DNA of 63,894 nucleotides, filler included, from Perkinsus olseni (lineage: Eukaryota), in the NCBI GenBank assembly GCA_013115125.1. It is 10 parts of 10 records of this genome, joined end to end, with 100 filler letters (N's around TTAATTAATTAA, not from the genome) between each part and the next. Parts side by side here need not be neighbours in the genome. Positions count along the whole stretch, not along the records: positions 40,901 to 63,894 come from JABANN010000526.1; 9 more parts are not named here. One strand, 5' to 3'. Shown here in pieces: positions 2,204 to 63,894 of this stretch. How positions within the stretch are numbered: position 1 is the first letter of the stretch; every line of letters begins with the position of its first letter. A program made the translations under genes and the position numbers. A model generated the notes under the pieces. It did not search any database. It was given only the letters and a program-made list of their open reading frames with translations, and was not told the origin of the DNA.

Positions 2204-3204
2204 TTCACCCGTTCGACCACTTCATAAACCCCTTCATACTTATGGGTCATCCTCTGCTTAAAGCCGGTAGCCCCATAATGAGGTTTAAACAGGACCTTAT
2301 CGCCCACTTGAAGTTCCTCAGACTCGGAGGGATTGTCTCGGAGAGCCCTGGAATCACTAGCCGCATGAGAAAAAGCATTTGCACGCCTTCGCACATCCAA
2401 CAAATGAGATCGCCATTGCTCAATCTGAGCCGCACTCTTCCTCAACTTAGGATCGGTCGCCATCAACGGTTGAGCCTCAATGATGCTAGCATCCGCTGGC
2501 ATCCGCATCTCTTGCCCACAGACGTAATTAAATGGACTGGTGGCAGTACTCCCGTTGGCAGTCGCCCTCATAGCCCACAAGGCAAGGGGTAACTGATCAT
2601 CCCAATCCGAAGACTCAAGATCCACTAGGCTGATCAGCGCCGACTTGAGTGTACCAATTCCTCTCTCAGTCGCTCCCTGAGATTGGGGATGATAAATCAC
2701 CCCCGTTCTGCTCTTTAGGCCTATAATAGACCACAGAGTAGATAGGAACTTTCCGGTAAACACCCTATCATTATCCGAGGACAGCTGTCGCGGCAGACCG
2801 ATATACGAGAATACTCCACCTATCAGACACCTTGCAGTTGATTCTGCCGTTGGACTTCGCAGGGGAAAGGCGAAGGGGTAACGGCTAGATAGATCCAAAC
2901 AAAATAGGATATATCTATTCCCCCTTTTACTAGCCCGCACTGGTCCAGTAAAATCAATCTGTAATGTATCCCACAAGTCGGTAACTCTAAAGCCCTGCTG
3001 CTTGACCCTTAATGTCCTCCCTTTTAGAAGTTGACATTTGGGGCAACTCTTTATGAAGTCCTTAATCTGCTGCTTAGCATTCGGCCAATAATATCGGCGA
3101 AACAACTGGTTGCAGGTTTTATTGAACCCCATATGAGCACCCGTAGGTCCAGCATGCCACTCTTCAATGATTTCTTGACGGTGCTCAGGTGGCACTATCA
3201 CTCT
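2204..3204 (-). mobile_element. Ty3/gypsy-like integrase fragment
   Basis: HHCC zinc finger (WH..GAHMG..YYWP..CPKC), IDFTGP, SSDNDRVF, YHPQSQGATER and a GPY/F-like C-terminus (GDKVL..KYEGVYEVVE). Confidence 0.9.
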
Positions 3205-3304
3205 NNNNNNNNNNNNNNNNNNNNNNNNNNNNNNNNNNNNNNNNNNNNTTAATTAATTAANNNNNNNNNNNNNNNNNNNNNNNNNNNNNNNNNNNNNNNN
3301 NNNN

Positions 3305-4305
3305 CCCTTGGATGTGGAACCCGGATTTGTCGCCGTGGACTTGGAACCCGGAAAGGCTTAGCACTTTAATTGGCTCCTGGTGTTGAGGTTATCCCTCCGG
3401 ACTCTGTGGTACCTGAGGAAGATCCTGAAATGTCTGGCCTGCTACCGGACACTATGGTGAAGCCTCTCATCGCCACGATAGTTTTGTGCCCATTATGGTC
3501 GTGGGATAAACTCCGAGAAGCCCAAGAGCAAGACCGAGTAGTTCGAGAAGTTCGTGATCGAGTTTTGGTAGACGCCCCGCTTGGTCGCAAGGAGTTTACC
3601 TCTCGTCTATATATGCCTTATAGACGTATCTGGTCGGTCTTGGACGTTTGTGATGGAGTTTTGGTGCGCCTCCTGAAGACGGATCCCTTGGAACCCGTCC
3701 GCTGTGTAGCCGTGGTTCCTACCTCCTTGCGGAAGGAAGCTGTTGCTTATTATCATGATGAGAAGGGTCACTTTGCCGAGAAGCGCATGCTTGAGAACAT
3801 GAAGCCTACGCTGTATTGGCCCAACATGCACGTCGAGATCAACGACTACTTACAGCAGTGCACTGGTTGTACTGTTGCTCGTCCTGGTCGTCCGATTCCA
3901 TCCCCTTTGGTTCCGGTTCCGGTAGGTAGGCCTTGGCATACGTTAGCTGCGGATTACTTGGAGATTACCCCGCCCGTTGACGGCAAGAAGTACTTGTTAG
4001 TGTTGCAGGATTATTTCACCAAGTGGGCTGAAGCTTATCCGCTTCAGCGGGCGACGGTGGAAGAAACCCTGCCTCATCTCTTGAACCTCTTCTCCAAGTT
4101 TGGCCCTCCTGTCCGCATACATTCAGATCAAGGCCCCCAGTTTGAGTCCATCCTCTTCAATCGGGTGATGGAAGCCTTGGGGATAAAACGGTCGCGTTCC
4201 TCCGTCTATCATCCCCAGGGTAATGGTCTAGCCGAGCGATTTAATCGTTCGTTGCTCGACATGCTACGCCGGCACATTGGGATCCCCGATTGGGTATCTC
4301 ATCTG
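3305..4305 (+). mobile_element. Ty3/gypsy-like integrase fragment
   Basis: YYHDEKGH..LYWPNM..CTGC, LAADYL, QDYFTKWAEAYPL, IHSDQGPQF, YHPQGNGLAERFNRSL. Confidence 0.92.
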
Positions 4306-4405
4306 NNNNNNNNNNNNNNNNNNNNNNNNNNNNNNNNNNNNNNNNNNNNTTAATTAATTAANNNNNNNNNNNNNNNNNNNNNNNNNNNNNNNNNNNNNNN
4401 NNNNN

Positions 4406-5406
4406 GCAGTGGTGCAACCTAGTGAGGTCAGAGCGGCGACTAGTGTGAAGTTGGATGAGAAAGGTTATACTGTAGATTGCCCTGTCATGAGTGCTCGCTC
4501 TGTGATGCCTTACGTCGAACCCCGAAGGAGAAGGAGTCGCAGTAAGGAGATTGCTATCCATAGGAGAATCCTCATTGCTGTCCATGAGGGAAAGTTTGCT
4601 CCTATTGATGTTGCTTCAGCGTCCGTTATCAACGAAGTCGTGCTGGTTGACAAAGGGTGCCCGAGCGGAGAGGGTCCTTCTACGATTCCTATCTATGATA
4701 TGACGGATGCCGACATCAAGAAGCGTTTCCGAGTAACGCTTGACTGCCGGAGGTTGAACTGCATGAGGCTTGTGAAGAAGCCGAACTGCCCTGGTGAGTA
4801 TATGTGGGTCCTGCCTTCTGATATGGCGGAAACCTGGAGGTTGGAGTCCTCAGTTACTCAGAGTCAGAACAATGCTTTTCTGACTCTCCGCGAGTGGCCT
4901 GGCCACTTGCGGAAGTTCTATTTCAAGATTGACTTATCTGATGCATTCTCATCAGTAAGAATTGATAAGGATCTATGGGGCTTGTTCTGTTGCCGCACTT
5001 ATGATGAGTTCGGTCAGGAACACCATTGGTGTTGTCGCGTCATCCCTCAGGGATATAAATATTCCCCGATCCTCTTTTCGCGGGTGGTATCTGAAGTGCT
5101 GGAGGCAGCTCGTCAAGAATGTAAACGTCTCGGTTTGGATGTCAAATTAACTCACTTCCAAGACGACGTTCTAGGTGGTGCTGCTGATCTGGATACTGTG
5201 ACTAAGGCGAAGGAGGTGGTTGAGCGGCTCTTCATGGAGCGTGGTTTCTCGGTTGCTCCTCATAAGTCTCAGCTTGGAGATGAGGTAGTCTTTTGTGGTT
5301 TGAAGTGCCTTCGTGGGGAGGTTCGTCCTTCAGAGCGCAAGGTCTTGACCACTGCCATTGTGACGGCTGCTTGCGTTGACTTCAACAAGTTGACTGATAC
5401 TGAGGA
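4406..5406 (+). mobile_element. Retrotransposon reverse transcriptase fragment (gypsy/DIRS-like)
   Basis: FRVTLDCRRLN, FKIDLSDAFSSV, IPQGYKYSPILF, HFQDDVL, GFSVAPHKS, FCG. Confidence 0.88.
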
Positions 5407-5506
5407 NNNNNNNNNNNNNNNNNNNNNNNNNNNNNNNNNNNNNNNNNNNNTTAATTAATTAANNNNNNNNNNNNNNNNNNNNNNNNNNNNNNNNNNNNNN
5501 NNNNNN

Positions 5507-6321
5507 CTTTCTTGGCCATGTCCTCGAGACGGAGGAAGATGATGGCGTTGTCAGCCGGCGCACGACCTCGAGGGGCTTCGCGAAAGGGCTCCACGGCAGC
5601 ATGCTCGAGAGCCTCGAAGTGGACCTTGAGGATCTTCTTCTCCGAAGAGTTGGGGTCCGAGACAACGTTGATGAGAGGAGTACACTGGCGAGGGTAGCTG
5701 TTCTTGACCGCAATGCTGCAAGCACAATGGCCAGCATTGTCAGCGATGGGGCTAGGCTCACCCTCAGCACTGCTAGGTGACACAGTTGAGAGGCCAGTGA
5801 TCGGGATCCCATGGTCACTTACCATGCGGATGCCCAGATCAGAGAAAAGGTTCCTCCCCAGGATGCAGGAGGGCTGACAGCCCGGCACCACCAGGAACCG
5901 CAGGGGCAGGTCGCAGAGTTGGGTACCGTCGAAGGAGCAGCGGAGTGTGATGAGGGTGCTACTTGAGAGCAGTTGACCATCGCCGAACTTGATGGAGATG
6001 GAACTGGGAAGCACCACAGTGCTGCTCGGCTCAACGGCATCTCCGGGCGACGACGGTGAGGACGACACCTCTGGTCTGCATGTGGTAGAGACTCACACTG
6101 CCAAGGCTGTCATCTCCAGCGACTCACAAGCCACATGTGTGAGTGCCACTACGCGCTTCGTCAACTCCCTGCCAAGGGATCCCACTATCGAGCTCCGCAT
6201 TGGTACTCATAAGCGCTACTGCCCGCTTACTGGCCTGGTTGATAGTGGTGCCAACGTGTCTCTCATCAGTGCGTCAACAGTTGCCTTCCTTGGCCGAGCG
6301 AAGGCAGGGATTGCTTCCTGA
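5507..6321. mobile_element. Rearranged retrotransposon aspartic-protease/RT-start fragment (halves on opposite strands)
   Basis: + strand: GLVDSGANVSLIS. - strand: IKFGDG..FLVVPG..ILGRNL, followed by PFREAPR..LRLEDMAKK. Confidence 0.7.
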
Positions 6322-7129
6322 GGCTGTTGCTGCAGACTTCGCCACTGCTGGTCAATCGCCCTCATCTCCAAGCGGTTCATGTTGGAGACATCGAGTGCCT
6401 TGATGATGGCAACGTGACCTTCCTCCCGGATGAGGGTGATGGGAACCTTCTTCCTGATGCGGGACCTTAGAGGTTCACGAAGGCAACGAAGGACGATCTC
6501 AGCAGANNNNNNNNNNNNNNNNNNNNNNNNNNNNNNNNNNNNNNNNNNNNTTAATTAATTAANNNNNNNNNNNNNNNNNNNNNNNNNNNNNNNNNNNNNN
6601 NNNNNNTGACTCAAACTGGTGCCCGCGAGTGAGCAAATGCAGTAGTCCTGAAGATGGTCGAAGAATTATATTCAAGCGCATACCGCTGAGGCCCCGCAGC
6701 CAGTCCAGAGTAACGCCACGCAGCAGCATCAGGGTGACGCAAACACGAAGATTTCGCGCGCCCCCAGGCCCAAGTCACCGACACTACCTGCCTCTCAGCT
6801 ACCATCCCTCTCCGACTCCTGTCGAATTTCGATGCAACATCGGAACCAGTGGGTGTCGCTTGCCCGACCAACAGATGAAGAGCAGCAGCAGCCAGGGCAT
6901 GAATCCGGGGAAAGTTTAAACTGTTGTTAAACAGGCCCCTGTTAAGAACCGGCTGGATCCTGTTCTTAACTTAATCCACCGCACTCTTCGGCTATAGTGT
7001 TATTGAAAGCACAACCACAGGGCGACAACATCAAGTATGGGTACATGAAAATCCAGTAATCATGCATACGTGAGTGTGCTCCTTTCCTGGAGCGGATTGA
7101 GGGCTAGAATCACAAGCCATAACCTATTC

Positions 7130-7606
7130 TCAAGTCTCAAGAAGTTTTAGCTTGACTGTTGATAGAGTCGTCTCCCCAGAAGCACCATTGATGCCAGCAT
7201 CGAACATCAGCGACCATCCCCCGCCTGCCTCATCACAAATTCGGAATGAACTCGGAGATATGTCAGCGAATCCTAGAGTGTCTCGCAAGATTATCAAATC
7301 CAGTTCATAATTTTCGTTTGAGAAATCGAGCCGCAGGCAGCCCTCGCTGTACACCGCTGTTACCTCAGGGAGCGTCATTGGACATTCAAGTCCTAGTATA
7401 TGGAAGATGAGCTGAGCTCGACGGCGGTGTGGAGGGTAATCAGTTCTGATGCTCACCGCGACCATGTTGACTAGATCGAGTCCAGTATCGGTTACCAGAT
7501 ACCTTCCATCGGGTACACTCGGTGACGTGGACGACATCTCATCGGCTCCTTCCTGATGAGACTCTGCATAGCCTCTCTCCCACCCTCCAGTTGACACCAC
7601 AGCGGG
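7130..7606 (-). CDS. Hypothetical protein (5'-truncated)
   Basis: 156-aa open frame with natural composition running into the contig end; no motif recognised. Confidence 0.4.
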   Translation of the reverse strand, partial: PAVVSTGGWERGYAESHQEGADEMSSTSPSVPDGRYLVTDTGLDLVNMVAVSIRTDYPPHRRRAQLIFHILGLECPMTLPEVTAVYSEGCLRLDFSNENYELDLIILRDTLGFADISPSSFRICDEAGGGWSLMFDAGINGASGETTLSTVKLKLLET

Positions 7607-7707
7607 NNNNNNNNNNNNNNNNNNNNNNNNNNNNNNNNNNNNNNNNNNNNTTAATTAATTAANNNNNNNNNNNNNNNNNNNNNNNNNNNNNNNNNNNNNN
7701 NNNNNNC

Positions 7708-7821
<114 letters not shown>

Positions 7822-7867
7822 GGTCTCTCTAGCCTAGTAATACTTGGCCAATATCATCTCATTTCAA

Positions 7868-7883
7868 GGCGTTATTTAACGCC
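7868..7883 (+). promoter_or_regulatory. Histone mRNA 3' stem-loop (after H3)
   Basis: GGCGTT-ATTT-AACGCC: 6-bp stem, 4-nt loop, 46 nt after the stop. Confidence 0.75.
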
Positions 7884-8125
7884 ATCTTTGGCTTATTCCC
7901 TCGATACATACTGAGGACTAGAGGAGAGGTGGTGTCTTAATAATACTGGTTGATGATAGCGCCTCGGAGGTAGGCTATCGATACCGGCTAGGAGTGATTC
8001 TCTGAATGTCAAATGCCCTCAAGGTGATTTTCCTGTTTTTTCATCAGAATCAGTGCGGGACGGCTCTTGTTGAGAAGTCTATTTTTCCTTATCTCTTCAC
8101 TAGTGTAATTTCGACAAGCTAAACA

Positions 8126-8539
8126 ATGTCTGGAAAGGGTAAAGGTGGTCGTGGCAAGGCTGGCAAGAAAACCGGCACTGGAGCCAAGTCTCGCTCAGCC
8201 AAGGCTGGCTTGCAGTTCCCTGTGGGTCGTATCGCGAGGTATCTCAAGAAGGGTCGTTACGCCAAACGTGTGGGCTCCGGAGCTCCCGTATACTTGGCTG
8301 CTGTTCTGGAGTACCTCGTCGCGGAGATCCTCGAGCTTGCGGGCAACGCTGCGCGTGACCACAAGAAAACGAGAATCATCCCTCGCCACATCCAGCTGGC
8401 TGTCCGCAACGACGAGGAACTGAACAAGTTCCTTGCTGGTGTGACCCTCGCGAGCGGTGGCGTCTTGCCCAACATCCACACCACCCTTCTGCCTAAGAAG
8501 AGCAAAGGCAAGAGCTTCACCGCTTCTCAGGAAATGTAG
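8126..8539 (+). CDS. H2A.X: Histone H2A (H2A.X type)
   Basis: [40 protein letters not shown]-terminal SQEM motif; intronless. Confidence 0.97.
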
Positions 8540-8582
8540 ATAGAGCCACTGTGCTCTGCTACCTGAGGCTCATCAATTCCAA

Positions 8583-8598
8583 GGCGTTATTTGGCGCC
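8583..8598 (+). promoter_or_regulatory. Histone mRNA 3' stem-loop (after H2A)
   Basis: GGCGTT-ATTT-GGCGCC: the same stem with two G-U pairs and the same CAA..ATCT flanks as after H3. Confidence 0.72.
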
Positions 8599-8806
8599 AT
8601 CTATACTTGCTTGAAATTTCTTGCACGCGATGGATACAGAGTTGACATTGTTTCATCCATTCGTTGAGTTCTTGAGAAATCAAATGCTATGGGCATTGAC
8701 TAGTTTNNNNNNNNNNNNNNNNNNNNNNNNNNNNNNNNNNNNNNNNNNNNTTAATTAATTAANNNNNNNNNNNNNNNNNNNNNNNNNNNNNNNNNNNNNN
8801 NNNNNN

Positions 8807-40772: not shown

Positions 40773-40900
40773 GATGTCAGAGAAGTGTAAACTGGGCAAC
40801 NNNNNNNNNNNNNNNNNNNNNNNNNNNNNNNNNNNNNNNNNNNNTTAATTAATTAANNNNNNNNNNNNNNNNNNNNNNNNNNNNNNNNNNNNNNNNNNNN

Positions 40901-56133: not shown

Positions 56134-56205
56134 GGCTGTGTGGTCTAGTGGTATGATTCTCGCTTCGGGTGCGAGAGGTCTCGAGTTCGATTCTCGACTC
56201 AGCCC
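56134..56205 (+). tRNA. tRNA-Pro (CGG)
   Basis: 72 nt; CTCGC-TT-CGG-GT-GCGAG; TCGAG-TTCGATT-CTCGA; one acceptor mismatch. Confidence 0.85.
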
Positions 56206-56305
56206 GCGTTAGGTCGTATTGCGGCTGAGCACAGCTAATATGGCGGACGGGATCTTCGGAGCACAAAGCTCACGGGGTCCCCGGATAGAGATGAACGTTC
56301 AGTTT

Positions 56306-56379
56306 GCTGGAATGGTCTAGTTGGTTATGACGACTGCCTAACACGCAGTAGGTCCCGAGTTCGATTCTCGGTTCCAGTA
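56306..56379 (+). tRNA. tRNA-Val (AAC)
   Basis: GCTGGAA/TTCCAGT acceptor; ACTGC-CT-AAC-AC-GCAGT; intact T arm. Confidence 0.92.
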
Positions 56380-56505
56380 TTGCATTATCTTTCACGTGTA
56401 CTACATCATGCGCCGAGTTGGATTTGCTATCGCGTCTTCTGGTGCGCACAGTCTCTGGCGACAGACACCGAAGCACCCAAATCTCATTTATGAGTTGTCC
56501 TTTAC

Positions 56506-56762
56506 GGCTGTGTGGTCTAGTGGTATGATTCTTGCTTCAGGTGTGTGGTGGAATCGTTGAGAAGGAGACAGCGTGACGTCGTGCGCAGTAGATGAAGTAG
56601 ACAGATTAGCTATATTAGCCAGCGGCCCGCAATCGCGCCAACTCTGTGCGCGGCCCCTCTTTACTTGGCCTCCCGACTCCCTATGTCGAATTCCGAAGTT
56701 AGAACTGAGGAGAGACGACTACAAGGTGTGAGAGGTTTCGTGTTCGATTCTCGACCTAGCCT
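56506..56762 (+). pseudogene. tRNA-Pro-derived copy (CAG loop) split by a solo LTR
   Basis: 5' and 3' halves flank the insertion at 56544-56723. Confidence 0.88.
56544..56723. mobile_element. Solo LTR, 180 bp, with 5-bp target-site duplication AGGTG
   Basis: TGTGGT...ACTACA termini; AGGTG at 56539-56543 and 56724-56728. Confidence 0.88.
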
Positions 56763-56892
56763 AGGGTTACTCGACATACACTCGGGCGCACCCAAATGCA
56801 GTAAGTGAATATGTTGTCTCGCCTTCAGGCGTACGCGGTTCCTGGCGACAAAAACCGAAACGCCCGAGCCTCAGTTATATATTCGCTTTCGT

Positions 56893-56964
56893 GGCTGTGT
56901 GGTCTAGTGGTATGACTCTTGCTTCGGGTGTGAGAGGTTTCGTGTTCGATTCTCGACTCAGCCC
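56893..56964 (+). tRNA. tRNA-Pro (CGG), mildly degenerate
   Basis: CTTGC-TT-CGG-GT-GTGAG; T-stem mismatch. Confidence 0.6.
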
Positions 56965-57064
56965 GCGTTGGGTCGTTTTGAGGCTGAGCACAGCCAATAT
57001 GGCGGACGGGATCTTCGGACCAGGGAGCTCATCGGGTTCGCGGATAGAGATGAACGTTCGGCTT

Positions 57065-57138
57065 GCTGGAATGGTCTAGTTGGTTATGACGACTGCCTAA
57101 CACGCAGTAGGTCCCGAGATCGACTAACGGTTCCAGTA
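57065..57138 (+). pseudogene. tRNA-Val (AAC) pseudogene
   Basis: T arm/B box disrupted (GAGATCGACTAACGG). Confidence 0.75.
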
Positions 57139-57264
57139 TTGCACTATCTTTCACGTGTACTACATCATGCGCCGAGTTGGAGTTGCTATCGCGTCTTCTG
57201 GTGCGCACAGTCTCTGGCCACAAACACCGAAGCACCCAGATCTCATTTATGAGTTGTCCTTTAC

Positions 57265-57336
57265 GGCTCTGTGGTCAAGGGGTATGATTCTTGCTTCAGG
57301 TGTGTAAGGTCTCGAGTTCGATTCTCAATTTAGCCC
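57265..57336 (+). pseudogene. tRNA-Pro-derived copy with CAG loop, degenerate
   Basis: Multiple stem mismatches. Confidence 0.75.
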
Positions 57337-57351
57337 AGGGTTACTCGACAT

Positions 57352-57754
57352 TGAAACTCGGCCAACACGGGAGTGTGGGATTGGCATCACTCTGTGTGAT
57401 AGCTGTGGCCGAAGCGGCTACTAACTTCGCACAGAGAGATGTATGTGTGCGGGGATTGATTACGCTTAGCGGCTGTGCTAAGACGTCTCACCGCTTGCAC
57501 ACATCTCCCGGGCTGGGAGGGAAGAGTTCATCTTTCACACCAATAGATATACCGCAGCTCTTGTGGGAGCCACAGTGACCACTATGCGTAGCCTGCTATT
57601 ATTGTTCTAGTTGGAGCAGTGAATCCTATCCGTGCGTTCGGCATCTGCACGTAAGTATCTTATGTGCTGCGCGTAGACCGTGTGCGTACATTGTGTAGCG
57701 TGCGCACTCCCTTTGTCCCCGTATTTCACTGACGTAACACTACGCGTACTTACA
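57352..57754. mobile_element. ~403-bp insertion in an array spacer, probable solo LTR
   Basis: Interrupts the conserved spacer CTCGACAT|ACAGTC; TGAAA...TTACA ends; no clean TSD. Confidence 0.6.
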
Positions 57755-57870
57755 AACAGTCAGGCGCACCCAAATGCAGTAAGTGAATATGTTGTCTCAC
57801 CTTCAGGTGTACGCGGTTCCTGGCGACAAAAACCGAAGCGCCAGAGCCTCAGTTATATGTTCTCTTCTGT

Positions 57871-57939
57871 GGCTGTGTGGTCTAGTGGTATGATTTTTTC
57901 GGGTGCGAGAGGTCTCGAGTTCGATTCTCGGCTCAGCCC
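57871..57939 (+). pseudogene. tRNA-Pro (CGG) pseudogene
   Basis: Deletion in the 5' anticodon stem. Confidence 0.75.
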
Positions 57940-58040
57940 GCGTTGCGTCGTTTTGAGGCTGAGCACAGCCAATATGGTAGACGGGATCCTTGGGATCACG
58001 GAGCTCACCGGGTCCCCGGATAGAAGTGAATGCTCAGCCT

Positions 58041-58114
58041 GCTGGAATGGTCTAGTTGGTTATGACGACTGCCTAACACGCAGTAGGTCCCGAGTTCGAC
58101 TCTCGGTTCCAGTA
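58041..58114 (+). tRNA. tRNA-Val (AAC)
   Basis: Intact cloverleaf. Confidence 0.9.
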
Positions 58115-58240
58115 TTACATTGTCTTTCACGTGTACTACATCATGCGCCGAGTCGGAGTTGCTATCGCGTCTTCTGATTCGTACGGTCTCTGGCGATAGA
58201 CACCGATGCACCCAAATCTCATTTATGAGTTGTCCTTTAC

Positions 58241-58312
58241 GGCTCTGTGGTCTAGTGGTATGATTTTTGCTTCAGGTGTGAGAGGTTTCGTGTTCGATTC
58301 TCGACCTAGCCC
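58241..58312 (+). pseudogene. tRNA-Pro-derived copy with CAG loop
   Basis: TTTGC-TT-CAG-GT-GTGAG; acceptor mismatches. Confidence 0.7.
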
Positions 58313-58442
58313 AGGGTTACTCGACATACAGTCGGGCGCACCCAAATGCAGTAAGTGAATATGTTGTCCCACCTTCAGGTGTACGCGGTTCCTGGCGACA
58401 AAAACCGAAGCGCCCGAGCCTCAGTTATATATTTCCTTTTGT

Positions 58443-58514
58443 GGCTGTGTGGTCAAGTGGTATGATTCTCGCTTCAGGTGTGAGAGGTTTCGTGTTCGAT
58501 TCTCGACCTAGCCC
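58443..58514 (+). pseudogene. tRNA-Pro-derived copy with CAG loop
   Basis: CTCGC-TT-CAG-GT-GTGAG; T-stem and acceptor mismatches. Confidence 0.65.
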
Positions 58515-58744
58515 AGGGTTACTCGACATACAGTCGGGCGCACNNNNNNNNNNNNNNNNNNNNNNNNNNNNNNNNNNNNNNNNNNNNNNNNNNNNNNNNN
58601 NNNNNNNNNNNNNNNNNNNNNNNNNNNNNNNNNNNNNNNNCACCCAAATGCAGTAAGTGAATATGCTGTCTCGCCTTCAGGCGTACGCGGTTCCTGGCGA
58701 CGGAAACCGAAGCGCCCGAGCCTCAGTTATATATTTGCTTTTGT

Positions 58745-58816
58745 GGCTGTGTGGTCTAGTGGTATGATTCTCGCTTTGGGTGCGAGAGGTCTCGAGTTCG
58801 ATTCTCGACACAGCCC
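58745..58816 (+). tRNA. tRNA-Pro (TGG)
   Basis: Perfect acceptor GGCTGTG/CACAGCC; CTCGC-TT-TGG-GT-GCGAG. Confidence 0.93.
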
Positions 58817-58874
58817 GCGTTAGGTCGTTTTGCGGTTTTCACCGGGCACCCGGATAGAGATAAATGCTCAGCTT

Positions 58875-58948
58875 GCTGGAATGGTCTAGTTGGTTATGAC
58901 GACTACCTAACACGCAGTAGGTCCCGAGTTCGACTCTCGGTTCCAGTA
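58875..58948 (+). tRNA. tRNA-Val (AAC), one anticodon-stem mismatch
   Basis: ACTAC vs GCAGT. Confidence 0.65.
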
Positions 58949-59074
58949 TTGCACTATCTTTCACGTGTACTACATCATGCGCCGAGTTGGAGTTGGTATC
59001 GCGTCTTCTGATTCGCACGGTCTCTGGCGAGAGACACCGAAGCACCCAAATCTCATTTGTGAGTTGTCCTTTAC

Positions 59075-59146
59075 GGCTGTGTGGTCTAGTGGTATGATTC
59101 TTGCTTCAGGTGTGAAAGGTCTCGTGTTCGAGTTTCAACTCAGCCC
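59075..59146 (+). pseudogene. tRNA-Pro-derived copy with CAG loop, degenerate
   Basis: Disrupted T arm. Confidence 0.75.
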
Positions 59147-59278
59147 GCGATACATGTCACTATACGGTTGGGCGCGCTCAAATGCAGTAAATGAATTTGC
59201 TGTCTCGCCTTCGGGTGTGCACGATTCTTGGCGACAGATACCGAAGCGCCCAAGCCTCAGTTATATCTTTGTTTCTGA

Positions 59279-59350
59279 GGCTGTGTGGTCTAGTGGTATG
59301 ATTCTCGCTTCAGGTGCGAGAGATCTCGAGGTCGATTCTCGACACAGCCG
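59279..59350 (+). pseudogene. tRNA-Pro body with CAG anticodon, stems intact, T54G
   Basis: GGCTGTG/CACAGCC; CTCGC-TT-CAG-GT-GCGAG; T loop reads GTCGATT. Confidence 0.6.
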
Positions 59351-59450
59351 GCATTAGGTCGTATTGCGGCTGTGCACAGCCAATATGGCAGACGGGATCT
59401 TCGGAGCACGAAGCTCACCGGGACCACGGAATGAGATGTCTCTTCAGCTT

Positions 59451-59530
59451 GCTGGAATGGTCTAGTTGGTTATGACGACTGCCTCACACGCAGTAGGTCC
59501 CGACTCGGAGTTCGATTCTCGGTTCCAGTA
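59451..59530 (+). pseudogene. tRNA-Val (CAC) with a 6-nt insertion near the T arm
   Basis: ACTGC-CT-CAC-AC-GCAGT; GTCCCGACTCGGAGTTCG. Confidence 0.65.
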
Positions 59531-59619
59531 TTATTGCTGTTGAGACTCTCAACTTGAGAGTTGCTGATGTGACTTTCAGCTGACTGGAATGCTCCATCGC
59601 TCAGCTCTCCATCGATCAG

Positions 59620-60193
59620 TGGAGATGCACCTGCATTACGCGTAAAACAGTTTCGCGCCAGTGTAATTACGCATGCGAAATAACGCGTAGTACGCGTAAT
59701 GGCAGGTGTAAAACGCGTTTTACACTTCGCGCGAGAATATCGAGTATTATATGCGTAAAACCACGTGAAATAACGCGTAAATACATGTTATCATGCGTAC
59801 TTAGACGACAGTCTATTATGAATTCAATCGGCACTTCTTAATTTCAAAGCACTCCTGGATCACAGAAACTCAGACAAAACACGTTTCAAATGGCAAACGC
59901 GAGTCTGTCAATCACTTCCTTGGTCTGTGCTTGTCGAACTCTCGTTAATTTTGATTTTTTTGTATCATTAGGAGACGGGGATCGACTTTGTGTTATTAAA
60001 AGTTGGGACAATACCGGTCTACGTTAAGCGCGTAAAAACGTACGGACCCAGTACGCCAAGCGCGTACTGGCCACAGTTGTGTAATACACTCCACGCGTTT
60101 TACGCGTAATGTGCGTAAAATAGAGCCATTACGCGTTGTGTAATGCGTAATGCGTATTACGCTAGCGTATTATACAACGGGGGTGCATCTCCA
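59620..60193. mobile_element. Non-autonomous hAT-like DNA transposon/MITE (574 bp)
   Basis: 12-bp perfect TIR TGGAGATGCACC / GGTGCATCTCCA; dense TACGC/ACGCGT subterminal motifs at both ends; no TSD seen. Confidence 0.7.
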
Positions 60194-60247
60194 GTATATA
60201 TGATGTGCAGTCCTTAGCACCTCAACGAAGCCCTTCTATTGGCCTGT

Positions 60248-60316
60248 AGCACGTATCACGAGTAGCTTCAGGATGAGCGCCGCACGTATCACGAGCAGCC
60301 TCAGGATGAGCGCCGC
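60248..60316. repeat. 33-bp tandem duplication
   Basis: GCACGTATCACGAG(T/C)AGC(T/C)TCAGGATGAGCGCC x2. Confidence 0.85.
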
Positions 60317-60406
60317 CGAACTCGGAGGCGGCTACCATCTTTCGGACCCCTTGAAGCAGCTTAATCGGATAAAGGAGGCGTGCATCTTCCTTCATCATCC
60401 ATAAGC

Positions 60407-60461
60407 TTCGGTATGCGAGACACTTAAGAGGTTAAACCTCTTAAGTGTCTCGCATACCGAA
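60407..60461. repeat. 55-bp palindrome (27-bp arms, 1-nt spacer)
   Basis: TTCGGTATGCGAGACACTTAAGAGGTT-A-AACCTCTTAAGTGTCTCGCATACCGAA. Confidence 0.95.
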
Positions 60462-60612
60462 ACTTTCTTGCATGCTAGTCGTTTCGGCAAGTTTCTTTCG
60501 GCGAGCATCTTAGAGTAGTATTTCTCCGAGTTCGGCGAGGTCAAGAAGATCCTCTGCCAGAGGACTTCTGGTTGCCTTGGAGGCGGCAGAATTCCGTTGG
60601 ACCCCAGTGGGG

Positions 60613-61638
60613 TCACCCCGCCCCGGGAGAACTCGGTAAACACCACGCCTGTCTGTATTGTGGTACTTTGTTTGATAGTGCTGCTTCAATGGGGTTCGTC
60701 GTAATGAAGTCCCCCCCTGGCAATGTCGCATATTCGACATTGCCAGGGGGGACTCTCAGCCCACCTTCTGGAAAATACACCCCATCTCGTCTCAGGATCT
60801 TGCAAAGCTCCTGAGCACTTCGCATACCAAGCCCCAAGTGCCCTAGACGCAGCAGGTCTCGTGCTGATTCCCTGCTCAGCACCACACCATTCTCTTCTCC
60901 ATAAGAGAATGACGATACCCCAAGGTAGTGGTGAGAATCCAAACTCACTCCAGAGGGCAAAGGGCTCTCATGGCCACTCTCAGTAGATTCCCTGAAGCGC
61001 TCCTCAAGCCTCTGAGCTACGAGCGTATCTGTGTAACCTCTAGCAGCAACCCTCTCAGCGAACTTCACGCCAGCTCTCCGTGGACGTTTCACTGTCCTGG
61101 CGCATTCACGATCATCATGATCTTCAACAAGGTTCCCGCATCGCGAGCAGACCCCTTTCGGGGGAGACGCCGTTGATGTCCTTCCAGGTCCCGGAGCATT
61201 CGACTGCGCCTTCTTAACGAAGTTAGGGACAAGCGCGGAAGCAACGCTACACACCTTGCAGCGATCGGCCTCAGAGCAGATCGCCGCCTGCCGGGTTGAT
61301 ACCGGATCGTAGTCCATGAGGAGAGCATCATAATAGTGCCGCTTCTCCTCATTCCACTTCTCGACGTCCATTGCACCAGTGCTCATCTTGGCCAAGCGAG
61401 TACGACACGCATTACACAGTACCTTCGGTAGCCTCAGGTTGGTTACCTCGGCTTTGAAGTCAACCTGGTAGAATTTTAGAGCTCGCTGACAGACCTTACA
61501 CACGGCCGCTGACCGGCCGTGGTGAGTTAGCCTAGTGAAGCAGAAACGACATACAACATACAGGTGTCGTAAGTGGTTCTCGTCAACAGTGGCAGCGACC
61601 TCCGGTGGGATGGTTAGATTCTTCTCGGACCTGGGCAT
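60613..61638 (-). mobile_element. Chapaev (CMC)/RAG1-N-terminal-like zinc-finger transposase fragment, catalytic core absent
   Basis: H-x7-CRFC..VDFKAEV..LPKVLCNAC..DYDP..CKVC..PGR..VCSRC..H...C, then a predicted HTH-like LGLGMRSAQELCKILRR; intronless. Confidence 0.65.
60712..60751. repeat. 17-bp-arm inverted repeat, 6-nt loop
   Basis: CCCCCCTGGCAATGTCG-CATATT-CGACATTGCCAGGGGGG. Confidence 0.93.
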
Positions 61639-62155
61639 TAGTATTTTCTGAAACCTACTACGCTACTATGTGACTCATTGGCTCTATACATGTCCGCGCT
61701 AGTTCTGTTCCGTATTCACTCATTATTTGGAGATTGTTCTCCCATGGTCTCTAGCTTGATTGGTTGGTGGTTCGCTAGCAAGTCGACTCTTCCGTTTGAT
61801 CATCTGCGGTGTCTCTTGGCTCAAGATCGAGTCTTCCCAGTGCTAACTCAAGGGCGTCATTGACTATGGAGTTGACCATTAGGAAATGAGAGTGATACTA
61901 ACTACGAATGGGATATCATCAAATAACTCATACTCATAGTCCGATGATTCGGGAGTAATCCGCAGCTGCGGCACGCATATACATAGCCCGATCCGCTATG
62001 TTCCTGCGTGCAGCGGAGCGGTCGTCAGCATATTCATGAAAAGTAGGTTGGGCTTCAATAAGGAGCCCTTCCTAGAGATAGTGCGGTGCGCAGCACCAAC
62101 CGCAGATGTCCCCCAAGGGGTCCTGCATTGAAGCGCAAGCATGATAGAGAAAAAA

Positions 62156-63894
62156 TCAAGAGAGGTAACCCGCTGTGACAAGAGCAGTTCTCGAGGTGTC
62201 ACGCAGCTTTCCCGTAGGAGTCAACTTTATCTTCATGAGGACCGAACCAACTGTTCTCAGCAAGGGGTAATCATCATCATCAGCTGGAGTTTGCGCAACG
62301 TAAGAGTCCCCGTCTGCAGCCATCCATACCGGCAGAAAAGTTTTGCCGTCCGTGGTGTCGTATACCTGGATACGCATATCCTGGGTTCCAGGGTCCTGTT
62401 TGACCTTGCCGATCACGTCTTCTCCACCAGGGAGACGAACCAGCAGTATGTCATCAATCTTGGTCGATGATAACGGTATTGTTGTTTCTGTAGCCAACGT
62501 AGGTCGATTCCTGTCGACCACTGCATCACGTGGTTCCAGGTGGCAAGCAGATACCGATGCCGTTTTGTCTTCCGGTGATCCTAGTGGGCGCAGACGGACA
62601 GAGAAACCTGCCATGGAGCCTAGGTACTGGAAAGGCCCCCCGTCAACGTTGACGCCTTGGACGATGACGACATGACCTTCAACGGGCCTTGCCCCCGGCC
62701 GGCGCCAGACAACTAAGTCGCCGTCCTTGACTGGTTTTCCCGGGCGGGATGCAGAGGCGCGTAAACAATCCCTAATATGAGACTGAAGTACCGCAGTTCT
62801 AGCGAGACCTATGGAGTCAGTGATGACCTGACGGACAGATTCCCTAGTGTCGATTGACAGGGCCAGCTGTTCAAGTCCGTCGCAGGTCGCTTGACGGTGA
62901 GGATCCAAGACAGCTGTCAGTACAGCCGCTGAAGGGGTATTGACCTTAGTGCCGAACATGAGCTCAGCAGCAGAGTGACCAGTTGCCCGTTGTTGGGAGT
63001 TGATGGCCAATTGGACGTGCGGCATCGCCGCGTCCCAAGGGAGTGAGTAACCAGGGAGGATGCGTTTAATCCGGCCGACCCGGGCCTCCGCACTCCCATT
63101 AGACCAGGGAGACCAGGCCGGCACTGAGAGGAAGCGTACCCCGCAGGCCTTGAGGGAACTCCGCAGCGACGGTGTGTCTAAGAAGTTATCTCCCGTGACC
63201 GACAGAGGTACGCCCATCAGTGCTATCCACGACTCGAAAAGAGTCGCGGATGTGGTAGGTCCGCCAACATCAGCGACACATCTTATCAGAGTGAACCCAG
63301 TGGAGAGGTCCGTCATCACCAAGAAGGCCTTATTGTTTGGGTCCTTAGCGGGAGACCATGATGGGGATGGATAACCATGATCCATGGCTAAGTGCTTGCC
63401 ACGCGCATCGATGTCCAGTAACCCCCTAGGTACTCTCGGCGCACTCAGCAACTTAGCCCTCTTACTCGGCTTCTGTTCCATACAGTAATCACAACGGGAT
63501 ATCCATGACCGTATATCCCGAAAGATGGATGGCCACCAAGCCAGACTGCAGATAGTATCCTTGACTTGGGGGTGTGCCCGATGACTATCAGCTTCATGGG
63601 CAGCAAATATCAGCCATTCACGTAGTTCCCAGTTGGGAACGACGTTAGTGCTGATAATCTGTTCCAAGCCAGCGACCTTACCGGCAGGGATCACAGGTAC
63701 GAGTACCTCGCCGAGGAGCGTGACGTCGCTGATGACATGAACGAGATCGGTTTTGAAGGAGACCAGGCCGAGGGTCTTCGCTTCTTGCGAGACTCGAGAA
63801 ATGTCATTACCGTTGGTGAAATGGGCATGCCATGTACTCAGGCTATCCCCATGAAACCGAGTGCTACCATCGGCAGCCTGCAACAGGACCAGCT
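62156..63894 (-). mobile_element. Divergent LTR-retrotransposon integrase (pol C-terminus; 5' part outside the window)
   Basis: AHE..SH..WWPSI..CDYC zinc finger; LAMDH..MTDLSTGF; VTGDN; WSPWSNGSAEARV; QLAINS..SAAELMFG; GDLV..GPF. Confidence 0.88.

What the first reader, a model, noticed from the sequence alone, without database searches (positions are those of the whole stretch)
60613..61638. RAG1-N-terminal/Chapaev-like zinc-finger transposase in a protist
Seen: HLRHLYVVCRFC (H-x7-C-R-x-C), FYQVDFKAEV..LPKVLCNAC, CKVC, then a second CSRC..H...C finger. From memory this parallels the RAG1 non-core region (H..LRHFCRICG..FRIDVKADV..HPTEFCHDC..CDIC) and the Chapa domain of Chapaev transposases, mostly known from animals. 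No DDE core follows; plausible homology ends near 60755. Inference: a truncated member of a RAG1-related or Chapaev family in an alveolate, either ancient or transferred from an invertebrate host.
Basis: partly seen in the sequence, partly recalled or inferred. Interest (0 to 1): 0.7.

Follow-up and report, generated by a model that had tools for sequence, protein, structure and literature searches.

The report
Broken Chapaev transposase gene in Perkinsus
This is the front third of a jumping-gene enzyme whose zinc-finger head resembles the start of the vertebrate immune recombinase RAG1; the copy is dead, but finding this family in an oyster and clam parasite rather than in an animal is unusual.

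Summary
Homology to relatives stops at 60754, at a 40-bp palindrome.

It is a 3'-truncated copy of a cut-and-paste transposase family found in 23 named protein clusters from three Perkinsus species. Full-length members are 751-758 aa. They carry a D-D-E triad and the C(2)C, LH and H(4)H motifs published as Chapaev hallmarks.

A model of the family's core matches RAG1 and HzTransib at Z 17.9; the next fold, Hermes, scores 7.7. The only non-Perkinsus sequence hit is a Hydra protein (profile E 1.6e-10, BLASTP 7e-37). By eye, its N-terminus is the published 'Chapaev-5_HM' row of the CHAPA-domain alignment.

The window copy has no catalytic core, a loop scrambled by small indels, and an LTR retroelement abutting its 5' flank, so it is a relic.

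A tree and only 23% identity to the nearest animal element argue against a recent transfer from the host. Terminal repeats and target duplications could not be tested. I found no paper reporting Chapaev in Perkinsus; Repbase could not be checked.

The parts
60613..61638 (-). Whole ORF (341 aa, P0001). Residues 1-295 are the transposase N-terminus; residues 296-341 are an unrelated read-through tail ending in a stop codon.
60754..61638 (-). The part homologous to the Perkinsus Chapaev-like transposases (their residues 1-300).
   Evidence: tblastn: 72% identity to P0015, 85% to P0014, 38% to P0017. phmmer best stretches end at query residue 295-296.
61234..61590 (-). Chapa / RAG1-NZD-like two-zinc module, residues 17-135. 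Candidate ZFa ligands are C30, C33, C75, C78; candidate ZFb ligands are H22, C121, C127, C130.
   Evidence: Ligand conservation. hhalign against the Hydra Chapaev-5_HM N-terminus, 93.8%, E 1.7e-7. Published ligands of the RAG1 NZD. Published CHAPA alignment. Model pLDDT 83-95 over residues 11-100 except 65 for 41-50. Language-model nearest named cluster is PF12560, score 0.92.
61489..61539 (-). Loop between the first CxxC and the next helix (residues 34-50). It is 12 nt shorter than in a related contig and differs from the relatives' sequence, probably through compensating small indels. It holds this copy's own extra CKVC (47-50).
   Evidence: Six small insertions and ten substitutions against the X8 contig at 61496-61524. 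Alignment with P0002, P0014 and P0015. The frameshift reading comes from reading the sequence by eye.
61102..61149 (-). CCHC zinc knuckle: C164-x2-C167-x6-H174-x4-C179.
   Evidence: Conservation 27-31 of 40-41 rows. The Hydra protein has C-x2-C..H-x-C at the aligned place.
60769..60885 (-). Two predicted helices (256-265 and 272-284) in the conserved block LSxExARDLLRLGHLGLGxxSAxELCxILRR. I infer a helix-turn-helix-like DNA-binding element ahead of the missing core.
   Evidence: Secondary structure. Conservation. No fold match above Z 4.3, so the function is inferred.
60712..60751 (.). 40-bp palindrome (20-nt arms, 95% complementary) sitting at the point where homology ends.
   Evidence: Inverted repeat I3. 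As single-stranded DNA, 60690-60775 folds at -25.9 kcal/mol, z -6.8, matched or beaten by 0 of 200 shuffles.
61639..61800 (-). 5' flank of the ORF. It is still shared with the longer related contig of run X8, so it is probably the element's 5' untranslated or subterminal part.
   Evidence: X8 record 27 matches 60756-61800, then runs on unlike the window for 195 nt.
61805..62104 (-). 300-bp high-copy repeat with TG..CA ends. It is probably the 3' LTR of the retroelement whose integrase ORF lies at 62156..63892 (-), and it abuts or interrupts the transposon's 5' side.
   Evidence: Depth rises from 173 to as much as 5879 in X1, with many loose ends at 61804/61805 and 62104/62105. Ends read. Integrase_H2C2 E 8.5e-9.

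Best explanation
The ORF is a dead, 3'-truncated copy of a Chapaev-group (CMC/'CMCT') cut-and-paste DNA transposon that lives in Perkinsus genomes.

The intact enzyme is about 750 aa. I read its parts as follows:
[quoted passage not shown] It has a C4 site (ZFa), and a second site (ZFb) closed by one N-terminal His and three C-terminal Cys.
- A CCHC knuckle and a short helical, helix-turn-helix-like element. Inferred: together with the Chapa domain these bind the transposon ends or position the enzyme.
- A RAG1/Transib-fold catalytic core with D363, D433 and E653 (P0015 numbering), a C(2)C and an H(4)H zinc site. Inferred: it nicks and transposes as RAG1 and Transib do.

The window copy keeps only the first 295 residues. 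It is cut at 60754, where a 40-bp palindrome begins, then reads 46 unrelated codons to a stop. One loop is scrambled, and an LTR retroelement lies against its 5' flank. It cannot catalyse anything.

Shown: homology, truncation, family motifs, core fold, and the link to a labelled Chapaev. Inferred: zinc binding, DNA binding, the chemistry, and mobility.
For: Truncation
- tblastn matches only residues 1-300 of full-length relatives, ending at 60754, with no other match in the window.
- A 2758-nt contig in run X8 matches 60756-61800. Its 30 letters left of 60756, read by eye on the minus strand, encode the KALDEKWDV stretch of the intact relatives.

Family
- 23 named 90%-identity clusters: P. 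olseni 10, P. marinus 4, P. chesapeaki 9.
- There are also unnamed clusters. The full HMMER scan found 48 representatives at E<=1e-3.

Core motifs, counted over rows that span each column of alignment A5
- D363 and D433: 20 of 22 each.
- C452 and C455: 16 of 21 each.
- H507 of the LH motif: 17 of 18.
- H627 and H632: 10 of 15 each; the other 5 rows have gaps.
- E653: 10 of 14.
- C(2)C, LH and H(4)H are the motifs Zhang et al. 2014 give as characteristic of Chapaev (PMC4079192, passages).

Core fold
- The AF2 model of P0048 has pLDDT 74 and pTM 0.72.
- Foldseek gave 48 hits at E<=1e-3. Every row listed through rank 48 is RAG1, BbRAGL or HzTransib (some ranks are not listed), best 2.4e-9. Hermes follows at rank 49 with 1.6e-3.
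- VIA-align: HzTransib 6pqx_A Z 17.9 (320 aligned, rmsd 4.3); RAG1 6xnx_C Z 17.9 (347 aligned, model 76-452 on RAG1 533-997); next fold, Hermes, Z 7.7.

Labelled relative
- The family profile hit Hydra LOC136096352 (P0071) at E 1.6e-10. It was the one non-Perkinsus hit among 25 hits from 8000 scored candidates.
- BLASTP of P0015 against P0071: E 7e-37, 23% identity over 663 columns, collinear.
- By eye, the P0071 N-terminus equals the 'Chapaev-5_HM' row of Additional file 5 of PMC4411706, with one residue different.

N-terminal domain alone
- hhalign probability 93.8%, E 1.7e-7 against P0071 plus P0050; 76%, E 2.3e-5 against P0071 alone.
- The H22 to C30 spacing of 8 equals RAG1 H102 to C110, followed by a C4 site and three C-terminal ligands (counts).
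- ESM-Atlas features for residues 8-140: the best named cluster is a RAG1 fragment cluster with PF12560 in 98% of members, score 0.92, 195 of 256 features.
- The Atlas model of P0015 aligns to chordate RAG1 clusters at TM 0.53 and 0.50 over residues 15-678 and 5-688.
Against: - No Pfam family reaches its threshold. RAG1_imp_bd (PF12560) is not hit at E<=1 in any of 49 members. Only zf-AD recurs (12 of 49, best E 0.0038, all under the 28-bit cut-off).
- HMM searches of PDB sequences with the single protein and two family profiles found no RAG1 or Transib.
- Foldseek on the N-terminal model found nothing at E<=1e-3. The ZAD matches are weak, Z 3.2-3.8.
- Terminal inverted repeats (5'-CAC..GTG-3') and 3-4-bp target duplications, which are hallmarks of Chapaev, were not seen. 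This copy lacks its 3' end, and no full-length DNA copy was available.
- The Chapaev label rests on one Hydra protein and a by-eye match to a published alignment row.
- The third C-terminal ZFb ligand is Cys here, not His as in RAG1.
- An Atlas score of 0.92 is reached by 4-10 in 100 shuffled proteins.
Confidence: 0.87

Rival explanations
1. The truncated ORF is not junk. It would be an expressed, retained N-terminal protein (zinc module, knuckle and helices) that acts as a DNA-binding regulator or as a repressor of the intact elements, the way truncated transposases act in other systems.
For: - The ORF is open for 341 codons with its original start codon, and all 12 candidate zinc ligands are intact.
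- Of the 9 listed substitutions against the X8 contig outside the scrambled loop, 5 are synonymous and 4 are not. That is more synonymous changes than neutral drift would typically give, but n is tiny and 35 further differences were not listed.
Against: - The loop at residues 34-50 is scrambled by indels.
- The last 46 codons are unrelated read-through.
- The closest sibling proteins in P. olseni are themselves defective. P0014 has internal deletions; P0002 and P0003 have a divergent stretch in place of SNAPGPGR.
- The locus lies between a tRNA array and an LTR retroelement.
- No expression evidence is on record.
Confidence: 0.08
2. On origin: the family entered the Perkinsus lineage by horizontal transfer from an animal, possibly a molluscan host, rather than by descent from an early eukaryotic ancestor. 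The transfer was ancient, not recent.
For: - Chapaev elements are described from animals and are prone to horizontal transfer, with host-parasite contact among the proposed routes (PMC4079192, passages).
- In these databases the family was seen only in Perkinsus (plus unnamed records) and then in a cnidarian.
- The Atlas's nearest clusters are Cnidaria and Porifera, scores 0.96-0.97.
Against: - No mollusc relative was found.
- The nearest animal protein is only 23% identical.
- The Perkinsus sequences form one 100/100 clade with at least six sublineages, four of them holding proteins named from two Perkinsus species, so the family diversified before those species split.
Confidence: 0.5
3. It belongs to another transposon superfamily already known in Perkinsus (Dada), or it is an unrelated ZAD-type zinc-finger host protein.
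For: - Dada elements are documented in P. marinus and have an N-terminal CCCC finger (PMC3706591, passages).
- A tRNA array lies 1.2 kb away.
- zf-AD is the only Pfam family that recurs in the relatives.
Against: - Dada is described with a DxxH motif, a C-terminal CCHC finger, weak integrase-like similarity and insertion inside tRNA or snRNA genes.
- This family instead has C(2)C..LH..H(4)H, a RAG1/Transib fold at Z 17.9 and a Chapaev-labelled relative.
- The fragment is not inside a tRNA gene.
- ZAD matches stay below threshold and cover only residues 28-90, which is what the published ZFa-ZAD resemblance predicts.
Confidence: 0.02

Closest known systems
Chapaev transposons (CMC/'CMCT' group), specifically the Chapaev-1/2/5_HM and Chapaev-1_AA type. 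The labelled relative is Chapaev-5_HM of Hydra.
   Same: The order of parts is the same: Chapa zinc module, CxxC..H.C knuckle, short helical element, then a D-D-E core with C(2)C, LH and H(4)H. The two are collinear over 663 columns (E 7e-37). The N-terminal domains align on their own.
   Different: The host is an alveolate protist, not an animal. Identity is only 23%. The ZFb C-terminal ligands are spaced C-x5-C-x2-C here, against C-x-C-x2-C in the Hydra protein. TIRs and TSDs are unknown here. No RING finger follows the Chapa domain, whereas two Chapaev subgroups have one (PMC4411706).
[quoted passage not shown] 2026 preprint, 10.64898/2026.01.24.700457)
   Same: A His lies 8 residues before the first CxxC. 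A second CxxC closes a C4 site (ZFa). [quoted passage not shown] The block FYQVDFKAEV..P..C.xC parallels RAG1's F.IDVKADV..P..C.xC in the published alignment. Helix H2 is absent, as in invertebrate RAG1L and Chapa domains.
   Different: The third ZFb ligand is Cys, not His. There is a longer spacer before the C-terminal ligands (43 residues against 28). No hit to Pfam RAG1_imp_bd. No superposition on the solved structure was possible, because it was not found in the PDB copy searched.
RAG1 / RAG1-like / Transib catalytic core (for example 6XNX, 6B40, 6PQX)
   Same: The full-length family members share the fold from the pre-RNase-H region to the C-terminal domain: Z 17.9, 320-347 residues aligned, model 76-452 on RAG1 533-997. 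[quoted passage not shown]
   Different: No sequence-level match to these chains by HMM. Identity in the structural alignments is 12-14%. The window copy has no core at all.
ZAD, zinc-finger-associated domain (PF07776; 7PO9, 6FP5, 1PZW)
   Same: Residues 28-90 (the C4 site and two helices) align weakly to three ZAD structures (Z 3.8, 3.6, 3.2; 57-65 residues). zf-AD recurs below threshold in 12 of 49 relatives. The preprint reports the same local likeness between ZAD and the NZD's ZFa.
   Different: ZAD binds one zinc and dimerises. Here a second ligand set (H22, C121, C127, C130) wraps around it. No match reaches Pfam's cut-off.
Dada transposons of Perkinsus marinus (Kojima and Jurka 2013, PMC3706591)
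   Same: Same host genus. Both are intron-less DDE transposase genes with an N-terminal cysteine finger.
   Different: Dada has DxxH and a C-terminal CCHC and targets tRNA or snRNA genes. This family has the Chapaev motif set and a RAG1/Transib fold. I ran no sequence comparison with Dada.

Membership tests
Chapaev transposase (CMC/CMCT) | Significant sequence similarity to a labelled Chapaev transposase | tested here: met
   The family profile hit Hydra P0071 at E 1.6e-10. BLASTP of P0015 against P0071 gave E 7e-37; the window's P0001 against P0071 gave E 3e-4. By eye, P0071 equals the Chapaev-5_HM row of PMC4411706 Additional file 5.
Chapaev transposase (CMC/CMCT) | [quoted passage not shown] | tested here: met
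   This holds for the family, not for the window copy. Counts: D363 and D433 20 of 22 each; C452 and C455 16 of 21 each; H507 17 of 18; H627 and H632 10 of 15 each; E653 10 of 14. The window copy ends before all of them.
Chapaev transposase (CMC/CMCT) | N-terminal Chapa domain | tested here: met
   hhalign of the N-terminal 150 residues against the Chapaev-5_HM-type N-termini gave 93.8%, E 1.7e-7. Ligand columns are conserved.
Chapaev transposase (CMC/CMCT) | Terminal inverted repeats 5'-CAC..GTG-3' and a 3-4-bp target-site duplication | not testable with these tools
   The 3' end is lost at 60754 and the 5' side abuts an LTR at 61805. No whole genome is held, and no related locus was found in metagenome contigs.
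Chapaev transposase (CMC/CMCT) | Placement inside the Chapaev clade in a phylogeny with other CMCT lineages | not tested
   Only Hydra P0071 and the unnamed P0050 were available as outgroups.
RAG1 NZD fold (two interlocked zinc sites) | ZFa: two CxxC pairs forming a C4 site | tested here: met
   C30/C33 and C75/C78 are present and conserved (29-33 of 36; 38 of 44). This matches RAG1 C110/C113/C175/C178 in pattern. It is a sequence pattern only.
RAG1 NZD fold (two interlocked zinc sites) | ZFb: one N-terminal His 8 residues before the first Cys, plus three C-terminal ligands | tested here: met
   H22 (29 of 36) lies 8 residues before C30. C121 (34 of 43), C127 and C130 (32 of 40 each) follow. 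RAG1 uses H102 with H206, C210 and C213; here Cys replaces the second His.
RAG1 NZD fold (two interlocked zinc sites) | Three-dimensional match to the solved NZD | tested here: inconclusive
   Foldseek against the PDB (entries to April 2026) gave no hit at E<=1e-3 and no NZD entry appeared. The preprint gives its deposition code as 21WB. Only weak ZAD matches were found on residues 28-90.
RAG1 NZD fold (two interlocked zinc sites) | Match to Pfam PF12560 (RAG1_imp_bd) | tested here: inconclusive
   hmmscan found no hit at E<=1 in 49 members. The language-model nearest named cluster does carry PF12560 (score 0.92, 195 of 256 features), and the Atlas structure row names PF12560 for the aligned part.
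RAG1 NZD fold (two interlocked zinc sites) | Binds two zinc ions | not testable with these tools
   This needs recombinant protein and metal analysis.
RAG1/Transib catalytic core fold | RNase-H-like core with ZnC2/ZnH2 insertions that superposes on RAG1 or Transib | tested here: met
   This holds for the family member P0048: Z 17.9 to 6pqx_A and 6xnx_C, against 7.7 for Hermes; Foldseek 2.4e-9. This part is absent from the window copy.
ZAD (PF07776) | Pfam gathering score reached | tested here: not met
   The best whole-protein E is 0.0038. The highest printed score is 16.7 bits, against a cut-off of 28.
Dada transposon | Insertion inside a tRNA or snRNA gene | tested here: not met
   The nearest tRNA gene ends at 59531, 1.2 kb from the fragment.
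Dada transposon | Sequence similarity to Dada transposases, with DxxH and a C-terminal CCHC | not tested
   No Dada sequence was available. Only the published description was compared.

The most novel reading that the evidence does not exclude
Perkinsus would carry the first described non-animal lineage of transposases that combine a RAG1-NZD/Chapa zinc module with a RAG1/Transib-fold core. The lineage is old and diversified within the genus, and at least one near-intact version sits at high k-mer depth in one strain.

If so, there are two possibilities. Either the 'NZD plus RAG-like core' architecture is older than animals, or it crossed between animals and an alveolate parasite of molluscs. 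Intact Perkinsus copies such as the 758-aa P. marinus protein could then be active enzymes for testing what the NZD does in a transposase.
Probability: 0.4. Interest if true: 0.65.

Novelty: new member of a known kind. Interest (0 to 1): 0.5.

Why it matters
The origin of RAG1 is a long-standing question. Its catalytic core is traced to Transib-type transposons, but its N-terminal zinc domain was only solved in a 2026 preprint. That preprint names animal Chapaev transposases as the only other lineage that consistently keeps the domain, and it builds its evolutionary model on animal data. An earlier paper states that the Chapa domain is found in no other known transposable element.

A diversified Chapaev-like family in an alveolate widens the known host range of that domain. 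It adds an outgroup-like set of sequences for reconstructing the domain's ancestry. It also raises a testable question of ancient animal-parasite transfer against pre-animal origin.

The window locus itself is only a relic and has no functional consequence that I can show.

Tried and rejected
Tools and sources that gave nothing
- Own-genome search: no genome is held, so copy number, other copies, TIRs and TSDs could not be examined.
- The metagenome scan for related loci gave 115 pattern matches, none confirmed.
- PDB sequence searches with P0001 and with profiles A2 and A5 gave no RAG1 or Transib. The best hits were a designed protein (E 0.3) and a viral polymerase (E 0.69), both noise.
- Foldseek of the N-terminal model gave nothing at E<=1e-3. 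ZAD 7pok_D appeared at rank 7, E 4.7.
- VIA-wide found no chain at Z>=5. The helical part (244-299) drew only common-arrangement matches at Z<=4.3, so I name no fold for it.
- Yuan and Wessler 2011 is not held. Its motif definitions are quoted second-hand.
- The search of earlier findings returned nothing.

Expression
- No RNA holder is listed.
- Run X7 is only guessed to be RNA. Its contigs lie on 60595-61336 and 61527-61837 and not on 60148-60582. I draw nothing from this.

Ideas I considered and dropped
- A Helitron 3' hairpin as the cause of the palindrome at the break: I saw no CTRR end beside it when reading.
- The break as an intron: there is no downstream exon in the window.
- MITE-like multi-copy palindromes: in X1 and X3 one single-copy contig with no mismatches covers both palindromes.
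- The 12-mer at 61814-61825: from recall it resembles the end of the dinoflagellate/Perkinsus spliced leader. One match is what chance gives (mean 0.45; 34 of 100 shuffles have at least one).
- Rfam found only two tRNAs in 59000-63894.

Papers
- Chapaev + Perkinsus: 1 paper, unrelated.
- Chapaev + protist: 9 papers, none on this topic judged by title and abstract listing only.
- Chapaev + Alveolata: 1 paper, the Repbase paper.
- CMC-Chapaev + dinoflagellate: 0 papers.
Full report
THE OBSERVATION

The minus-strand ORF at 60613..61638 encodes 341 residues.
- H22-x7-C30-R-F-C33.
- FYQVDFKAEV..LPKVLC75NAC78.
- CKVC, which occurs twice (47-50 and 127-130).
- C164SRC167..H174..C179.

These are not chance cysteines. 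In an alignment of 49 relatives, counting the rows that span each column:
- H22 is kept in 29 of 36, C30 in 33 of 36, C33 in 29 of 36.
- C75 and C78 are each kept in 38 of 44.
- C121 is kept in 34 of 43; C127 and C130 each in 32 of 40.
- The knuckle ligands are kept in 27-31 of 40-41.

H25 is not conserved (3 of 36). The CKVC at 47-50 lies in a loop peculiar to this copy.

WHAT THE ORF IS

The word-indexed search found 12 relatives besides the ORF itself, and 5 longer ones. The exhaustive HMMER scan of 1.84 billion representatives found 48 at E<=1e-3, of which 25 were at E<=1e-10.

Every relative that carries a name is a hypothetical protein of Perkinsus olseni, P. marinus or P. chesapeaki. 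Over that makes 23 named 90%-identity clusters (10, 4 and 9). The closest are P. olseni proteins at 85-86% identity, so the window is from a Perkinsus genome.

Full-length members are 758 aa (P. marinus, P0015) and 751 aa (unnamed, P0017). tblastn with them matches the window only over their residues 1-300, at 61638..60754, and nowhere else in the 63.9 kb.

So this copy has lost about 460 codons, including the whole catalytic part. After residue 295 the frame runs through 46 unrelated codons to a stop.

The break coincides with a 40-bp palindrome at 60712-60751. As single-stranded DNA, 60690-60775 folds at -25.9 kcal/mol, z -6.8.

The structure is real. One 1690-nt contig covers 60143-61832 without a mismatch in runs of two studies, one of which may be the window's source. 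A 2758-nt contig of another run (X8) matches 60756-61800 with 25 other letters and 15 gap letters. To the left of 60756 it continues with 30 letters that, read by eye on the minus strand, encode the KALDEKWDV stretch of the intact relatives.

THE FAMILY'S ENZYME

In an alignment of 23 members including the Hydra protein (A5), the candidate catalytic and zinc residues are conserved among rows spanning them:
- D363 and D433: 20 of 22 each.
- C452 and C455: 16 of 21 each.
- The H of the LH motif: 17 of 18.
- H627 and H632: 10 of 15 each; the other five rows are gaps.
- E653: 10 of 14.

C(2)C, LH and H(4)H are the three motifs that Zhang et al. 2014 give as characteristic of Chapaev, citing Yuan and Wessler (PMC4079192, passages). 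[quoted passage not shown]

An AlphaFold2 model of the 501-aa P. marinus member P0048 has pLDDT 74 and pTM 0.72.
- Foldseek gave 48 hits at E<=1e-3. Every row listed through rank 48 is RAG1, amphioxus RAG-like or HzTransib (some ranks are not listed), best 2.4e-9. Hermes follows at rank 49 with 1.6e-3.
- VIA-align gave Z 17.9 to HzTransib 6pqx_A (320 aligned, rmsd 4.3) and Z 17.9 to RAG1 6xnx_C (347 aligned, model 76-452 on RAG1 533-997). Hermes is the next fold at Z 7.7.

Sequence-only searches of the PDB found nothing, and no Pfam family reaches threshold.

THE LINK TO A LABELLED CHAPAEV

A profile of the family scored 8000 candidates and returned 25 hits. Of these, 24 were Perkinsus or unnamed proteins, and one was Hydra vulgaris LOC136096352 (P0071, 663 aa, E 1.6e-10).

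BLASTP of P0015 against P0071 gives E 7e-37, 23% identity, in one collinear alignment of 663 columns. It runs from the second CxxC of the zinc module to the C-terminus.

Additional file 5 of Kapitonov and Koonin 2015 (PMC4411706; I read part 1 of the supplement) is the CHAPA-domain alignment of RAG1, RAG1-like and Chapaev proteins. By eye, its row 'Chapaev-5_HM' is the N-terminus of P0071 with one residue different. The Perkinsus family is therefore tied to a named Chapaev element, of the Chapaev-1/2/5_HM and Chapaev-1_AA type.

THE N-TERMINAL DOMAIN

Taken alone, a profile of the first 150 residues of 26 Perkinsus-family rows aligns to the first 125-140 residues of P0071 plus P0050 at hhalign probability 93.8%, E 1.7e-7. 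Against P0071 alone it gives 76%, E 2.3e-5. All ligand columns are matched.

Hong et al. [quoted passage not shown]
- ZFa is a C4 site (C110, C113, C175, C178).
- ZFb uses H102 from the N-terminus and H206, C210 and C213 from the C-terminus.
- Invertebrate RAG1-like and Chapa domains lack helix H2.
- ZFa locally resembles the ZAD domain.

The window's protein fits that description at the sequence level:
- H22 lies 8 residues before C30, as H102 does before C110.
- C30/C33 and C75/C78 make a C4 set.
- C121, C127 and C130 give three C-terminal ligands, with Cys where RAG1 has His.
- The spacer between the CxxC pairs is short, with no H2-sized insert.

Further results agree with this reading:
- The AF2 model of residues 1-300 has pLDDT 83-95 over residues 11-100, except 65 for block 41-50.
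- Its only structural matches on residues 28-90 are three ZAD structures, all weak (Z 3.8, 3.6, 3.2).
- zf-AD is the one Pfam family that recurs below threshold (12 of 49 members).
- For residues 8-140, the language-model search puts a RAG1-fragment cluster first (PF12560 in 98% of members; score 0.92; 195 of 256 features) and a cnidarian cluster with PF12560 in 32% second.
- The Atlas's own model of P0015 aligns to chordate RAG1 clusters at TM 0.53 and 0.50 across residues 15-678 and 5-688.

These Atlas results are leads, not tests. Scores of 0.9 occur in 4-10 of 100 shuffled proteins.

I could not superpose the model on the NZD structure, because no such entry appeared in the PDB copy. PF12560 itself is not hit by hmmscan.

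AGE AND ORIGIN

I built a maximum-likelihood tree of the N-terminal ~300 residues of 25 rows, chosen as the longer relatives. The short fragments were left out.
- The Perkinsus family forms a 100/100 clade.
- It contains at least six sublineages, four of which hold proteins named from two Perkinsus species.
- Hydra P0071 and the unnamed P0050 sit together outside it on long branches.

With 23% identity to the nearest animal element, a recent transfer from a mollusc host is not supported. An ancient transfer between animals and the Perkinsus lineage remains as likely as vertical descent.

The databases showed the family only in Perkinsus, in unnamed records, and then in a cnidarian. The Atlas's nearest clusters are Cnidaria and Porifera (0.96-0.97). 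These searches have limited reach, and the taxa of unnamed hits could not be read.

STATE OF THIS COPY

Besides the 3' truncation:
- Residues 34-50 (61489-61539) differ from all close relatives and are 12 nt shorter than in the X8 contig, with six small insertions and ten substitutions in 30 nt. Reading the three frames by eye, part of the relatives' sequence survives in another frame. That suggests compensating frameshifts.
- On the 5' side, similarity to the X8 contig stops at 61800.
- A 300-bp repeat with TG..CA ends begins at 61805. Its depth reaches the thousands. It lies just downstream (51 nt) of an integrase ORF at 62156..63892 (-), and I read it as the 3' LTR of a retroelement.

In run X8 the related contig has a k-mer depth of 242.8, against 10.6-17 for the flanking contigs. 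The tool warns that depth is no copy number, so this only hints at many near-identical copies in that strain.

Of the nine listed substitutions outside the loop, five are synonymous. That is too few to weigh.

HOW IT WORKS

For the intact family I propose the following. The Chapa module, the CCHC knuckle and the short helical element (the conserved block around LGHLGLG..S..EL..ILRR, helices 256-265 and 272-284) form the DNA-recognition or regulatory head. The RAG1/Transib-fold core carries out DDE cut-and-paste.

Zinc binding, DNA binding, hairpin chemistry and mobility are all inferred from the relatives. The window copy encodes only the head and cannot transpose. A role as an expressed truncated binder is possible but unsupported. 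No RNA holder is listed.

COMPARISON AND NOVELTY

It works like, and by the tests available is a member of, the Chapaev group. The hallmark TIRs and TSDs remain untested.

Kapitonov and Koonin 2015 describe Chapaev from animals, and state that Chapa and RING domains occur in no other known transposable element. The 2026 preprint calls Chapaev the only lineage that consistently retains an NZD-like domain.

I found no paper in the held library that reports Chapaev in Perkinsus or in other alveolates:
- Chapaev + Perkinsus: 1 paper, unrelated.
- Chapaev + Alveolata: 1 paper, the Repbase description.
- Chapaev + protist: 9 papers, judged from listings only.
- CMC-Chapaev + dinoflagellate: 0 papers.

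The Repbase paper lists 105 families from one alveolate species. The family may therefore already be catalogued there. I could not check Repbase or the preprint's supplements.

VERDICT

The locus itself is an ordinary transposon relic. The family it belongs to is an unusual, probably unreported, non-animal branch of the RAG1-related Chapaev transposases.

Noticed in passing
window 56134-59531: There is an array of 13 tRNA genes (Pro, Val, Thr, Leu) on the + strand, in diverged tandem units 75-95% alike. It ends 1.2 kb from the transposase fragment. The Dada paper notes that P. marinus holds unusually many tRNA genes, with Dada elements inserted in them.
   Followed up: partly
window 61805-63894: An LTR-retroelement tail lies on the minus strand. 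It has an integrase ORF at 62156..63892 (Integrase_H2C2, E 8.5e-9), a purine-rich stretch, and a 300-bp TG..CA repeat at 61805-62104 whose depth in the runs reaches the thousands.
   Followed up: partly
window 60249-60314 and 60403-60465: A 33-bp tandem duplication and a 63-bp near-perfect palindrome are strain polymorphisms. In run X8 one contig skips 33 bp (one repeat unit) and 32 bp (one palindrome arm). Local direct and inverted duplications therefore arose recently in this flank, and the palindrome at the break (60712-60751) may have the same origin.
   Followed up: partly
window 1003-8806, 40801-40900, 58544-58640: There are regular pairs of 44-N runs separated by 12 bases, recurring about every 1100 bases between 1003 and 8806. 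One more pair lies at 40801-40900, and a 97-N run lies at 58544-58640 (889 N in all). These could be masked or withheld stretches, or gaps in a tandem repeat. I did not examine them.
   Followed up: no
window 61814-61825: A 12-mer inside the LTR-like repeat resembles, from recall only, the 3' end of the dinoflagellate/Perkinsus spliced leader. One match is within chance: 34 of 100 shuffles give at least one.
   Followed up: partly
proteins P0018 and P0066 (P. chesapeaki gene models): Two annotated proteins join a piece of this transposase family to host domains. P0018 carries PF13621 and PF00153 and is named a JmjC domain-containing protein by its source; P0066 carries PF00156 and PF14572. These are probably gene-model chimeras across an insertion, not real fusions.
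   Followed up: no
window 59630-60155: There are short ACGCGTAATG-type direct and inverted repeats. Contig depth here is several-fold above that of the neighbours in runs X1, X3 and X8, so this is a dispersed or satellite-like repeat between the tRNA array and the transposase fragment.
   Followed up: no
window 18674-51209: The rest of the window holds ordinary host-like ORF pieces: papain-type protease, NHL repeat, ATP-grasp and cyclin N-terminal domains. This fits a nuclear eukaryotic region.
   Followed up: no
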